A stretch of DNA of 64,000 bases from Amphiscolops sp. MND2022 (GCA_964187785.1 OZ076409.1:1612001-1676000), one strand, 5' to 3'; counted from the first letter of the stretch, positions 59,360 to 60,806 are shown. Numbers and translations are program-made. The notes: generated from the sequence alone by a model not told the origin.

Positions 59360-60806
59360 ATGACCGACCACACCTCTCATCAGATTTGGAACTTCTTCTT
59401 TCAAAAGAAACTAACAGAAAAGAACATACTTGATTTTCCTATGTTTGATATCACCTCTGCTGAATCTCCTATTCCTCGAACAACCACTTCATCAAATTTC
59501 ACCATTACTCCTCCAAACCCCCCTAATACATTTATCTTTAACGGTAGTATCAAAAAGAAGAAAACTCAATATTCGTTGAGACAAGCACTCCAAAAACAAA
59601 AGAAAAGTGAAGAAGCAGTTCGAAAGTATTCAAAAACAAGGAACCCCAGATTTCATTACAATCTCAACTACACACTTAAAGAAGACGTCAATCAGTGGAA
59701 AATTATTTTCTGGGATTCAAGAAGACAAGAATTTACTATTGAAAACAGCGTTTTCAAAAACCAGAGACTATCAGTACCCCTTCGGGCTATCTCTGCTTTC
59801 ATTTGAAAACAAAATGAAAAAACAATTAATAGAGGAATTCAACCTTAGATTAGCTGCTATGGAAAATGAAATTACAACACTACAAAGTCAAATAGCAAAT
59901 CTCAGCCAACCTACATGCACCAACGACGACCTCACCCAGATGAAGATGCTCATTAGCAAGTTCCCAATTAGCAACCTCAAAAACGCACAATACCTGCATG
60001 CAACACAATTACAAGTTGCAAACCTTTCAGAACAACTGGAACATGAAAGGAATCTACGAAGGCAACAAGATAGAAGTATTCAGCAACTCCAAATTAATAT
60101 TCAAACCCTTCAGACTATCATTCACGAGAAGTTAACTGCAACACAATCAGTAGAACAACCTGTAAATACTCCTCGCTTTACCTCTTCTTCAACTGAACCC
60201 GAATCAGCAAATACTCAAGAACAACTTGCTGAACTGAAACCCCTTAAAAGATTAACAATGGATCTTTATGATCGTATTCACAGCATTGATTGCGGAAGAG
60301 ATAAAAAGCTAATCTGGAGAATTAGCTCCTTCAGCCTTATGTATGATAATGCAAAGGCTGCTGAGCTAGAAAGGCAAAAAGGCATCAACCCGCTCCCCAA
60401 AATTTCTTGTAACTTTCACAGCCCTCCGTTTTACACCTCAAATCATGGGTACCTCTTTGATATGAAACTTTATCCTTATGGATGTTCTCCTGCTACTGGA
60501 TAAAGCGCTTCACTAGTTATCAACATCCTTCCCGGTGAGTTCGACCCAATCCTCTCTTGGCCTTTCAAGCAAATCTTCCGAATTATTGTAATCAATTTGA
60601 GTGAGCCCAGTGATACCTGGACAAAAATAGTAGACCCAAAAGACAACCAAAATTCAGCCTGTTTTATACGACCTTGTACAAGCTACGGGAACCCGAGCAT
60701 ATGCTTCCCCTTTCTGATCCCACACAGCCAACTCTTCAAAAGCAACTCCCCATTCATTCTGAATGACACGATGTTCATCGAAGTCAATCTGGAAGAACCA
60801 AAATGA
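59360..60806 (+). pseudogene. TRAF-like protein (coiled-coil + MATH/TRAF-C, no RING); one frameshift and one in-frame stop at 60501
   Basis: KLIWRI, SPPFYTSNHGY, LYPYG, SL.I.ILPGEFDPILSWPF, FIRP, NDTMFIEV follow the TRAF-C consensus; Q/E/L-rich heptads lie upstream. Confidence 0.88.

What the first reader, a model, noticed from the sequence alone, without database searches (positions are those of the whole stretch)
59360..60806. RING-less TRAF gene as the last ORF before the 3' LTR
Seen: coiled-coil plus a complete TRAF-C/MATH domain ending 58 bp before the LTR, intronless, with a non-TRAF N-terminus. Its position resembles retroviral 3' accessory genes. Known: TRAFs lacking the RING/zinc fingers act as dominant negatives of TNFR/TLR/RLR signalling. 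Inference: a captured immune-signalling decoy.
Basis: partly seen in the sequence, partly recalled or inferred. Interest (0 to 1): 0.82.

Follow-up and report, generated by a model that had tools for sequence, protein, structure and literature searches.

The report
Retroelement-borne RING-less TRAF-domain accessory gene
An envelope-carrying Gypsy-type retroelement, present in many copies in this animal genome, carries its own selection-maintained gene for a TRAF-like signalling adaptor without the enzyme part, so it may interfere with host cell signalling.

Summary
Window 59814-60806 is a 330-codon ORF: coiled coil plus a complete TRAF-C/MATH domain (Pfam E 4.9e-22; PDB and Foldseek best hits are TRAF1-6). 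It ends 58 nt before the 3' LTR. In this copy it is cut by one in-frame TAA. The supposed non-TRAF N-terminus (59360-59806) is a separate, conserved ORF in another frame.

The gene is not a lone retrocopy. All 40 scored genomic matches are full length. 19 of 34 fetched copies keep the 330-codon frame. dN/dS between subfamilies is 0.10-0.21 (MATH part 0.06-0.13).

The element is a 19-kb Ty3/Gypsy-type provirus with TG..CA LTRs, a target-site duplication, a PBS and a mononegavirus-like class III env. A second lineage (pol 71% identical) has the same env / ORF-A / TRAF-like order.

Three env-less copies are deleted exactly from a GT to an AG flanking env. This is fossil evidence of a spliced mRNA for the two 3' ORFs.

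No close host TRAF donor was found. The nearest relatives are other RING-less MATH proteins (40% identity or less). The decoy function is plausible but untested.

A MATH_TRAF_C motif in planarian giant Gypsy elements (Burro) is already in print, so this is a new variant of a known kind.

The parts
44049..44052 (.). target-site duplication GTCT (5' copy)
   Evidence: same 4 nt at 63111-63114 directly outside the LTR ends
44053..46416 (+). 5' LTR (2364 nt, TG...CA) with an 86-nt tandem repeat array
   Evidence: 97.0% identical to the 3' LTR over 1634 aligned columns
46420..46436 (+). primer-binding-site-like TGG... stretch 3 nt after the LTR
   Evidence: read from sequence; the tRNA match was not tested
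46883..48457 (+). gag region (fragmented frames)
   Evidence: weak Retrotrans_gag hit, E 4.9e-4, below the cut-off
48597..53524 (+). pol: RT, RNase H, integrase in Ty3/Gypsy order, broken into several frames in this copy
   Evidence: RVT_1 3.5e-17, RT_RNaseH_2 1.3e-17, Integrase_H2C2 8.9e-15, rve 8.7e-14, Integrase_p58_C 2.5e-7; continuous 832-aa frame in a sibling
53525..57140 (+). pol-env spacer with internal repeats, no conserved long ORF
   Evidence: (D6)
57138..57146 (+). 5' splice-site-like motif; exon/intron boundary 57140|57141 (GTTAGC...)
   Evidence: exact 5' edge of the env deletion in L017 and L023; the GGTTAGCAAG island is conserved between lineages F1 and F2
57212..59334 (+). env, class III mononegavirus-like fusion glycoprotein (fragmented in this copy)
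   Evidence: PF24664 E 6.4e-24 and 1.6e-13 in a sibling, 2e-39 in lineage F2; weak hit in the window copy
59340..59353 (+). 3' splice-site-like polypyrimidine tract + AG; boundary 59353|59354, 6 nt before the ORF-A ATG
   Evidence: exact 3' edge of the env deletion in 3 copies; present in 47 unspliced copies
59360..59806 (+). ORF-A, accessory ORF of unknown fold (148 aa here; N-terminal part frame-disturbed relative to siblings)
   Evidence: 153 aa in most siblings; dN/dS 0.04-0.05 between subfamilies B, C and D; homologous in F2, E 2e-28; no Pfam or Atlas match
59814..60806 (+). TRAF-like ORF: coiled coil (about aa 1-160) + TRAF-C/MATH (about aa 161-330)
60501..60503 (+). in-frame TAA that interrupts the TRAF-like ORF in this copy
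60807..60864 (+). 58-nt gap with a purine-rich end (polypurine-tract position)
60865..63110 (+). 3' LTR (2246 nt)
63111..63114 (.). target-site duplication GTCT (3' copy)

Best explanation
SHOWN. The interval holds the two 3' accessory genes of a roughly 19-kb envelope-carrying Ty3/Gypsy-type retroelement (an endogenous retrovirus-like element of an animal genome). The second gene encodes a 330-aa protein that is a bare TRAF domain: a TRAF-N coiled coil plus TRAF-C/MATH, with no RING and no zinc fingers. It is carried by the whole element family and by a distant sister lineage. It has evolved under purifying selection along the lineages that kept transposing.

SUPPORTED BY GENOMIC FOSSILS. The two 3' ORFs are reached through an mRNA from which env is spliced out (donor 57140|57141, acceptor 59353|59354), as in complex retroviruses.

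INFERRED. The protein forms a TRAF-like trimer. Lacking any ubiquitin-ligase part, it would act as a non-signalling TRAF-domain competitor or scaffold. It would occupy TRAF-binding motifs of host receptors or adaptors, or co-assemble with host TRAFs. That would damp or redirect TRAF-dependent signalling (NF-kB/JNK, cell death, antiviral responses) in cells where the element is expressed or which it enters. How the second cistron is translated (its ATG lies 7 nt after the ORF-A stop) is unknown.
For: Domain identity. Pfam PF21355 E 4.9e-22. phmmer against PDB gave 28 hits, all TRAF1-6 TRAF domains, best E 1.5e-14. AlphaFold2 model mean pLDDT 82.7, with helices 2-30, 37-49, 51-109 and 132-160 followed by a beta sandwich. 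Foldseek PDB top hits are TRAF5/4/3/1/2 TRAF domains, E about 2e-15, target TM 0.7-0.82, with about 170-205 alignment columns, roughly the full length of the TRAF-domain chains hit.

Trimer. Three copies of aa 51-330 scored ipSAE 0.64 against a best control of 0.00. That mark was reached by 21 of 30 proteins solved as pairs of one chain and 0 of 23 solved as single chains. On eukaryotes it was reached by 17 of 29, but by only 1 of the 7 with no older solved relative. The runs agree in at least 49% of contacts and partner pLDDT is at least 73. Contacts follow a heptad pattern along 54-107 and 134-158, plus MATH-MATH contacts. TRAF trimers are solved, so this pass may come from memory.

Family-wide presence. 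40 of 40 scored matches (202 candidates) are 82-100% identical; 39 cover the whole 1447-nt query and one covers 14-1447. 34 of 34 fetched copies are followed by the LTR, and 32 of 34 are preceded by the env tail. 19 of 34 keep an intact 330-codon ORF.

Selection (NG86, 24 frame-preserving copies). Between subfamilies dN/dS is 0.10-0.21 at dS 0.24-0.78; within subfamilies it is 0.31-0.59. The MATH part is 0.06-0.13 and the coiled coil 0.12-0.35, against 0.04-0.055 for the env tail.

Sister lineage F2 has pol, spacer, intact 718-aa env, ORF-A' and a 250-aa coiled-coil + MATH ORF. Identity to F1: pol 71%, env 64%, ORF-A 37%, TRAF-like 28%.

Splicing. L017, L023 and a third copy lack env exactly from GT to AG: 3 env-less junctions against 47 unspliced ones, with 0 control hits. 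The donor island GGTTAGCAAG and a pyrimidine-AG just before the ORF-A ATG are kept in F2.

Binding surface. In the alignment to TRAF5, the columns at TRAF5's Arg-x-Tyr motif read K and Y in F1 (R and Y in F2). TRAF5's Ser-Ser-Ser-Phe motif reads S-A-C-F, and its Ser-Gly-Cys motif keeps S and C. The roles of these hot spots are taken from passages of the review PMC6125299. Mapping TRAF2 numbering onto TRAF5 by motif is my inference.
Against: No experiment or RNA data bears on function.

The serine triad is only one-third kept, and the column of one hydrophobic-pocket Phe is a gap. Canonical Px(Q/E)E binding may therefore be lost or altered.

The only functionally studied viral TRAF found here (ISKNV ORF111L) binds TRADD and induces apoptosis, rather than acting as a silent decoy.

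The host's own TRAF repertoire could not be recovered. I saw one zf-TRAF exon hit and one canonical-like MATH exon, so there is no identified target.

The trimer prediction may be recall of solved TRAF trimers.

dN/dS shows that the protein matters to the element, not what it does.

The three env-less copies may descend from a single event.
Confidence: 0.5

Rival explanations
1. The TRAF-domain protein serves the element's own life cycle rather than immune evasion. The MATH domain would act as a generic peptide-binding adaptor that tethers Gag, Env, ORF-A or the pre-integration complex to host trafficking, ubiquitin or chromatin factors.
For: MATH domains are general protein-interaction modules. 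The canonical TRAF2-type hot spots are only partly kept. The gene is always paired with the strongly conserved ORF-A, and natural in-frame fusions of the two exist (L027 487 aa, L049 482 aa). Env-less copies still keep both ORFs.
Against: Best sequence and structure matches are specifically TRAF proteins, with the TRAF-N stalk, not MATH proteins of other families. No interaction of any kind was tested.
Confidence: 0.25
2. The protein is an activator rather than a blocker. By clustering host TRAFs or death-domain adaptors it would switch on NF-kB/JNK or caspase pathways, for example to drive LTR transcription or to promote cell death and spread.
For: ISKNV ORF111L, a virus-encoded TRAF, binds TRADD and induces caspase-8-dependent apoptosis (abstract and section 18 of PMC3352826). 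The long LTRs carry tandem repeat arrays that could be enhancers.
Against: ORF111L has a RING; this protein has none. No GGGRNWYYCC-type kappaB motif occurs anywhere in the LTRs or the window. That is weak evidence, because the host's motif is unknown.
Confidence: 0.15
3. It is a neutral passenger: a retrocopy of a host TRAF picked up by one element copy, or a host gene family that merely lies near LTRs.
For: The window copy itself is broken by a stop.
Against: It is present in all copies examined, always between ORF-A and the LTR. dN/dS is 0.10-0.21. The same gene order occurs in a lineage with 71% pol identity. No near-identical host gene was found.
Confidence: 0.03

Closest known systems
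Burro / GYPSM1 giant Gypsy-like LTR retrotransposons of planarians (Arkhipova & Yushenova 2019, PMC6431247; section 7 read in full; the primary reports by Jurka 2007 and Grohme 2018 were not read)
   Same: A Gypsy-type LTR element with a mononegavirus-like env that carries a MATH_TRAF_C motif. In Dugesia tigrina the motif sits in a separate accessory ORF. The authors already suggest meddling with host apoptosis and ubiquitination.
   Different: There the motif lies inside, or upstream of, a giant gag-env-pol polyprotein, together with BIR, BCL2-like, ankyrin and other motifs, in elements over 30 kb. Here it is a stand-alone 330-aa TRAF-N + TRAF-C protein placed 3' of env, in a 19-kb gag-pol-env element. 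No BIR or BCL2 hit was seen in the parts scanned. Homology between the two MATH genes was not tested, because no Burro sequence was on hand.
Envelope-carrying Ty3/gypsy 'errantiviruses' of metazoans (PMC13524379; abstract and found passages)
   Same: gag-pol-env order, a gB/class III-type env, and multiple near-identical copies per genome.
   Different: The main text has 0 occurrences of TRAF or MATH and describes no 3' accessory genes or env-removing splice. Its supplementary element lists were not opened and might include this family.
Viral TRAF of megalocytiviruses (ISKNV ORF111L, PMC3352826)
   Same: A virus-encoded protein with a coiled coil + MATH TRAF domain, about 32-33% identical to cellular TRAFs.
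   Different: It is in a large DNA virus, has an N-terminal RING, and was shown to bind TRADD and induce apoptosis. Ours is retroelement-borne and RING-less.
TRAF1 and N-terminally truncated TRAF2 (dominant-negative behaviour recalled from established knowledge, not from a call)
   Same: A TRAF domain without a RING. TRAF1 also has Ala at the middle serine of the triad (PMC6125299), as does lineage F1 here.
   Different: TRAF1 keeps a zinc finger and is a host gene. Identity to TRAF1 chains is low (23-24% in Foldseek).
Accessory genes of complex retroviruses expressed from env-spliced mRNAs (recalled)
   Same: 3' position, expression by removal of env as an intron, and more than one small ORF on the spliced RNA.
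   Different: A different virus family (Metaviridae-like), and splicing is inferred here only from env-less genomic copies.

Membership tests
TRAF family (TRAF-domain proteins) | TRAF-C / MATH eight-stranded beta sandwich at the C-terminus | tested here: met
   PF21355 E 4.9e-22; PDB hits are only TRAF1-6; Foldseek target TM 0.7-0.82
TRAF family (TRAF-domain proteins) | TRAF-N coiled coil directly preceding TRAF-C | tested here: met
   Model helices 51-109 and 132-160 abut the sandwich; Foldseek alignments of about 170-205 columns span roughly the full length of the TRAF-domain chains hit
TRAF family (TRAF-domain proteins) | Mushroom-shaped homotrimer | tested here: inconclusive
   Prediction passes (ipSAE 0.64 against best control 0.00; mark reached by 21 of 30 solved pairs of one chain and 0 of 23 single chains; eukaryotes 17 of 29, but 1 of 7 without an older relative). 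It may be recall of solved TRAF trimers.
TRAF family (TRAF-domain proteins) | N-terminal RING and TRAF-type zinc fingers (TRAF2-6) | tested here: not met
   No RING or zf-TRAF hit at E up to 0.1 in the 330-aa protein or in ORF-A, while 13 sampled cellular TRAFs show them
TRAF family (TRAF-domain proteins) | TRAF1/2/3/5-type receptor-peptide hot spots (Arg/Tyr polar pocket, serine triad, hydrophobic pocket) | tested here: inconclusive
   K/Y (F1) or R/Y (F2); triad S-A-C or S-E-C; Phe, Ser and Cys kept; one Phe column is a gap (roles from PMC6125299)
Ty3/Gypsy (Metaviridae-like) LTR retroelement with env | LTRs with TG..CA ends, target-site duplication, PBS-like site | tested here: met
Ty3/Gypsy (Metaviridae-like) LTR retroelement with env | pol domain order RT - RNase H - integrase | tested here: met
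Ty3/Gypsy (Metaviridae-like) LTR retroelement with env | env-like fusion glycoprotein gene downstream of pol | tested here: met
   PF24664 E 6.4e-24 (F1 sibling) and 2e-39 (F2, intact 718-aa frame)
Burro/GYPSM1-type giant planarian elements | MATH_TRAF_C carried by the element | tested here: met
   description in PMC6431247
Burro/GYPSM1-type giant planarian elements | gag-env-pol polyprotein with BIR, BCL2-like and ankyrin motifs; total length over 30 kb | tested here: not met
   gag-pol-env order, about 19 kb, and none of these motifs in the ORFs scanned
Megalocytivirus vTRAF (ORF111L type) | RING + TRAF domain in a large DNA virus | tested here: not met
   no RING; retroelement context

The most novel reading that the evidence does not exclude
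An invertebrate endogenous-retrovirus lineage runs a complex-retrovirus-like programme. Env is removed as an intron to express two dedicated accessory proteins. One of them is an ancient, virus-adapted, RING-less TRAF-domain protein that antagonises host TRAF-dependent innate signalling. It belongs to a clade of RING-less TRAF-like genes shared among retroelements and large DNA viruses rather than taken recently from the host. Part of the reported 'TRAF/MATH expansions' in animal genomes would then be retroelement cargo.
Probability: 0.3. Interest if true: 0.8.

Novelty: new variant of a known kind. Interest (0 to 1): 0.6.

Why it matters
Accessory genes that manipulate host signalling are a hallmark of complex vertebrate retroviruses and large DNA viruses. 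They are hardly documented for invertebrate LTR elements.

This family offers three things together: a selection-maintained TRAF-domain gene, a second conserved ORF of unknown fold, and fossil evidence of an env-removing splice. Dozens of young copies with open frames exist. The hypothesis 'retroelements carry innate-immunity or cell-death modulators', raised for planarian Burro elements, could therefore be tested with an ordinary protein.

It also warns annotators. At least 150 intronless MATH ORFs above the Pfam cut-off were scored in this genome. The F1 and F2 copies examined are retroelement cargo, so much of this count may not be host genes, and counts of 'expanded TRAF families' can be inflated in this way.

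Tried and rejected
RNA evidence: no RNA holder was listed for the young copy.

Earlier scan notes: none by place or by sequence.

Host TRAF phylogeny:
- Pfam MATH and a canonical TRAF query on the own genome were swamped by multi-copy intronless families.
- zf-TRAF gave a single exon hit, whose locus could not be cut out.
- The only canonical-like host piece in the tree is the exon in L039, on a long branch.

NF-kB-type motif GGGRNWYYCC (and its variant): 0 matches in the LTRs, the element or the whole window.

ORF-A: no Pfam hit at a useful E-value, no Atlas hit, and an AlphaFold2 model with mean pLDDT of only 59, so no fold search was run.

Long multi-MATH proteins among the distant hits (21 scanned) carry RING or zf-TRAF domains. 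None shows RT or integrase, so they are not element polyproteins.

A third multi-copy MATH family (frames of 351-371 aa, at least 10 places) shows no env within 2.2 kb upstream in the one copy fetched. The G3 family (L037/L068) shows no env, pol or ORF-A similarity in 10 kb. These families could not be assigned to elements.

P0045 and P0058 are not encoded in this genome (best identity 35-47% and 37%).

Cluster look-up gave no names or taxa. The host taxon was not determined.

Literature: three full-text searches for a TRAF/MATH gene in LTR retroelements found only the Burro/GYPSM1 description. The main texts of PMC13524379 and PMC5408684 have 0 occurrences of TRAF or MATH; their supplements were not opened.

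Full report
WHAT IS AT THE COORDINATES

The window is TE-rich animal-type DNA. It lies in a 1.07-Gb assembly at G000:C1:1612001-1676000.

Direct repeats define two long LTRs: 44053-46416 and 60865-63110. They begin TG and end CA and are flanked by the same 4 nt, GTCT. A TGG-starting primer-binding-like stretch follows 3 nt after the 5' LTR. The LTRs are 97.0% identical over 1634 aligned columns. They differ in the copy number of an 86-nt tandem repeat.

Between the LTRs, Pfam finds a weak gag, then RT, RNase H, integrase zinc-binding domain, integrase core and integrase C-terminal domain, in Ty3/Gypsy order. After a spacer of about 3.6 kb comes an env. In better-preserved siblings this env matches PF24664, the Monjiviricetes class III fusion glycoprotein (E 6.4e-24 and 1.6e-13). 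All these genes are broken into several frames in the window copy.

THE FINDING ITSELF

From the ATG at 59814 to the TGA at 60804-60806 there is one reading frame of 330 codons, interrupted once by an in-frame TAA at 60501-60503.

- Read with X at that stop, it matches TRAF-mep_MATH at E 4.9e-22 (aa 200-322) and MATH_2 at 8e-19.
- The intact protein of a sibling hits only TRAF1-6 TRAF domains in the PDB: 28 sequences, best E 1.5e-14.
- Its AlphaFold2 model (mean pLDDT 82.7) shows helices 2-30, 37-49, 51-109 and 132-160 followed by a beta sandwich.
- Foldseek's best PDB matches are the TRAF domains of TRAF5, 4, 3, 1 and 2: E about 2e-15, target TM 0.7-0.82, and about 170-205 alignment columns, roughly the full length of the TRAF-domain chains hit.
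- No RING or TRAF zinc finger is detectable.

Its stop lies 7 nt before the TRAF ATG.

IS IT A ONE-OFF?

No.

- A DNA search of the assembly scored 40 of 202 candidates. All were 82-100% identical. 39 covered the whole 1447-nt query and one covered 14-1447.
- I fetched 34 copies (L001-L030, L032-L035). 34 of 34 are followed by the homologous LTR start, and 32 of 34 are preceded by the env tail.
- 19 of 34 keep an ATG-to-stop frame of 330 codons. One more (L027) is an in-frame fusion with ORF-A. The other 14, including the window copy, have stops or frameshifts.
- Ten copies (L003-L012) are 99.4-100% identical to one another in this ORF, with dS 0.0096. This marks a very recent burst.
- A Pfam MATH search of the genome scored 150 of 440 candidates, all above the cut-off. 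144 of them have no stop inside the match. They sit in open frames of recurring lengths: 384, 342-349, 257 aa and others.

SELECTION

I computed Nei-Gojobori dN/dS on the 24 copies whose frame is preserved. Copies with frameshifts were left out, and stop codons were skipped.

- Between the four subfamilies, dN/dS is 0.10-0.21 at dS 0.24-0.78.
- Within subfamilies it rises to 0.31-0.59. That is expected if post-insertion decay is neutral.
- By part: MATH 0.06-0.13, coiled coil 0.12-0.35.
- For comparison, ORF-A is 0.04-0.05 (subfamilies B, C, D) and the env C-terminal 490 codons are 0.04-0.055.

The protein has therefore been needed by the lineages that kept multiplying.

A SECOND LINEAGE WITH THE SAME ARCHITECTURE

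A different repeat family, F2 (L066/L067), carries integrase, a spacer of about 4.6 kb, an intact 718-aa env (PF24664, E 2e-39), an ORF-A homologue and a 250-aa coiled-coil + MATH ORF (PF21355, E 3.8e-22).

F1 and F2 identities are: pol 71%, env 64%, ORF-A 37% (its C-terminal 70 residues nearly invariant) and the TRAF-like protein 28%.

Within F1 the TRAF-like gene's dN is about 3.4 times that of env (0.079 against 0.023 for B-D). By my rough extrapolation, 28% identity at 64% env identity fits orthologous co-divergence. An old single acquisition is thus plausible, but replacement from a pool of related genes is not excluded.

ORIGIN

An exhaustive HMMER search gave 1989 hits at E up to 1e-3. 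The closest proteins outside the family are 40% identical or less. They are MATH-only proteins with Pfam MATH scores like the element's own (about 65-92 bits). Proteins with RING or TRAF zinc fingers score 104-155 bits.

I built a 50-row 'quick' maximum-likelihood tree. The rows were mine to choose:
- 11 from this genome;
- 19 near hits without RING;
- 20 canonical-looking hits, 13 of which carry RING and/or TRAF zinc fingers;
- the other roughly 110 listed hits were left out.

One split (SH-aLRT 98) puts F1, F2, G3 and all 19 near hits on one side. All 13 RING/zinc-finger TRAFs, plus the probable host exon L039, fall on the other side. Relations inside the RING-less side are unresolved, and several branches are long.

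Searching the genome with a canonical TRAF found nothing better than 37% identity. So there is no sign of a recent host donor.

One RING-less relative (P0065) lies on a gene-dense metagenome contig (L071) beside an intact HSP70, a kinase, a BIR+RING protein and two more MATH ORFs. That looks like a large DNA virus or a compact protist genome, not a retroelement. An IMG/VR contig (L072) encodes a full RING + zinc-finger + MATH TRAF.

EXPRESSION ROUTE

Two fetched copies, L017 and L023, lack env. Their sequence runs from the pol-env spacer directly into the 6 nt before the ORF-A ATG.

The missing stretch begins with GT. In young copies the junction reads CAAG|GTTAGC; in the window copy the exon-side base differs, at boundary 57140|57141. 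It ends with a pyrimidine tract and AG (TTTTAG|CAAAGA-ATG, boundary 59353|59354).

A pattern search found this joined form 3 times and the unjoined acceptor 47 times, each with 0 control hits.

L017 and L023 are only 91.9% identical and sit on different chromosomes. The env-less form has therefore itself multiplied, or arose more than once.

In F2 the same GGTTAGCAAG island stands out in otherwise diverged sequence upstream of the env ATG. A TTTAG lies 12 nt before the ORF-A' ATG.

I read this as fossil evidence that env is an intron of the mRNA for ORF-A and the TRAF-like gene. It is not direct RNA evidence.

LIKELY MECHANISM

Three copies of residues 51-330 are predicted to assemble. The score is ipSAE 0.64 against a best control of 0.00.
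- The mark was reached by 21 of 30 proteins solved as pairs of one chain and by 0 of 23 solved as single chains.
- On eukaryotes it was reached by 17 of 29, but by only 1 of the 7 with no older solved relative.
- The runs agree in at least 49% of contacts, and partner pLDDT is at least 73.
- Contacts follow heptad spacing along the stalk, with MATH-MATH contacts as well.
- Because TRAF trimers are solved, this shows likeness rather than proof.

For the peptide-binding hot spots I used the review PMC6125299 (passages).
- The polar-pocket Arg/Tyr columns read K/Y in F1 and R/Y in F2.
- The serine triad reads S-A-C in F1 and S-E-C in F2.
- The following Phe and the Ser...Cys are kept.
- One pocket Phe column is a gap.

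A trimeric TRAF domain with a partly conserved groove and no ligase part is what one expects of a competitor or scaffold for TRAF-dependent signalling. It remains inference. The rivals are an adaptor for the element's own assembly or trafficking, or an activator or death inducer like ISKNV ORF111L.

COMPARISON WITH WHAT IS KNOWN

Envelope-carrying Ty3/gypsy elements across metazoans are described. The main text of that paper never mentions TRAF or MATH.

A MATH_TRAF_C motif in an LTR retroelement is in print for planarian Burro/GYPSM1 giant Gypsy elements. There it sits with BIR, BCL2-like and other motifs inside, or upstream of, a gag-env-pol polyprotein. The authors suggest tinkering with host apoptosis and ubiquitination.

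The present case differs in five ways:
- placement (a free-standing gene 3' of env);
- element layout (gag-pol-env, 19 kb);
- the companion ORF-A;
- measured purifying selection;
- the splice fossils.

I therefore class it as a new variant of a known kind. Three full-text searches found no other report. Supplements and the primary Burro papers were not read.

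Noticed in passing
window 59360-59806; L003:1501-1959; L063:610-1116: ORF-A is a 153-aa accessory ORF between env and the TRAF-like gene. It has a variable, probably disordered N-terminal half, a basic helix and a C-terminal ~70 residues almost invariant between lineages F1 and F2. dN/dS is 0.04-0.05. It has no Pfam or Atlas match, and its AlphaFold2 model has pLDDT 59.
   Followed up: partly
L027, L049, L015 (and protein P0194): Natural copies exist in which ORF-A and the TRAF-like ORF are fused into one frame of 440-487 aa. In other copies the TRAF frame stays open 17-59 codons upstream of its ATG, overlapping the end of ORF-A. Whether a frameshifted fusion is ever made is unknown.
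   Followed up: no
window 53525-57140; L031:3644-7792; L066:2772-7381: The 3.6-4.6-kb pol-env spacer has no long conserved ORF. It holds tandem repeats, and a ~45-nt motif about 90% identical between the two lineages is repeated several times in each.
   Followed up: partly
window 44573-45388 and 61348-62163: 86-nt tandem repeat arrays sit inside the unusually long (2.2-2.4 kb) LTRs, with different copy numbers in the two LTRs of one element.
   Followed up: no
L002 (G000:C1:1597036-1598481, minus strand, about 73 kb from the window copy): A second copy of the same subfamily, 98% identical over the query and in inverted orientation. It has an uninterrupted TRAF-like frame but a disturbed ORF-A.
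   Followed up: partly
own genome, e.g. C1:103772828-103773766; L037/L068: Further multi-copy intronless MATH-only families exist: frames of 351-371 aa (at least 10 places) and 165-168 aa (at least 7 places). No env, pol or ORF-A similarity was seen nearby in the one copy of each that was examined, so their carrier, if any, is unknown.
   Followed up: partly
L071:1-17785: A gene-dense metagenome contig with an intact HSP70 (E 2e-240), a protein kinase, a BIR+RING protein, a MAM-domain ORF and three RING-less MATH ORFs. One of these (P0065) falls on the same side of the tree as the element's gene. It is possibly a large DNA virus.
   Followed up: partly
L072:4777-6483: An IMG/VR viral contig encodes a full-length TRAF (RING, TRAF zinc fingers, MATH; 568-aa frame) near an FtsJ-like methyltransferase.
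   Followed up: no
protein P0132: A 265-aa predicted protein from another source combines a weak match to the N-terminal part of the Monjiviricetes fusion glycoprotein (E 3.8e-4, below the cut-off) with a MATH domain. It could be an env-leader/MATH splice product or a gene-model artefact.
   Followed up: no
window 9569-11941 (-) and 16871-17533 (-): A 790-aa open frame with a hydrophobic C-terminal segment lies downstream of a Gypsy-type integrase on the minus strand. It is possibly another env-bearing element. It has no Pfam hit.
   Followed up: no
window 29653-34240 (-), 35913-37007 (+), 17725-17924: A BEL/Pao-type element (Pao peptidase, DUF1759 gag), a non-LTR-type RT frame, and a 200-N assembly gap.
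   Followed up: no
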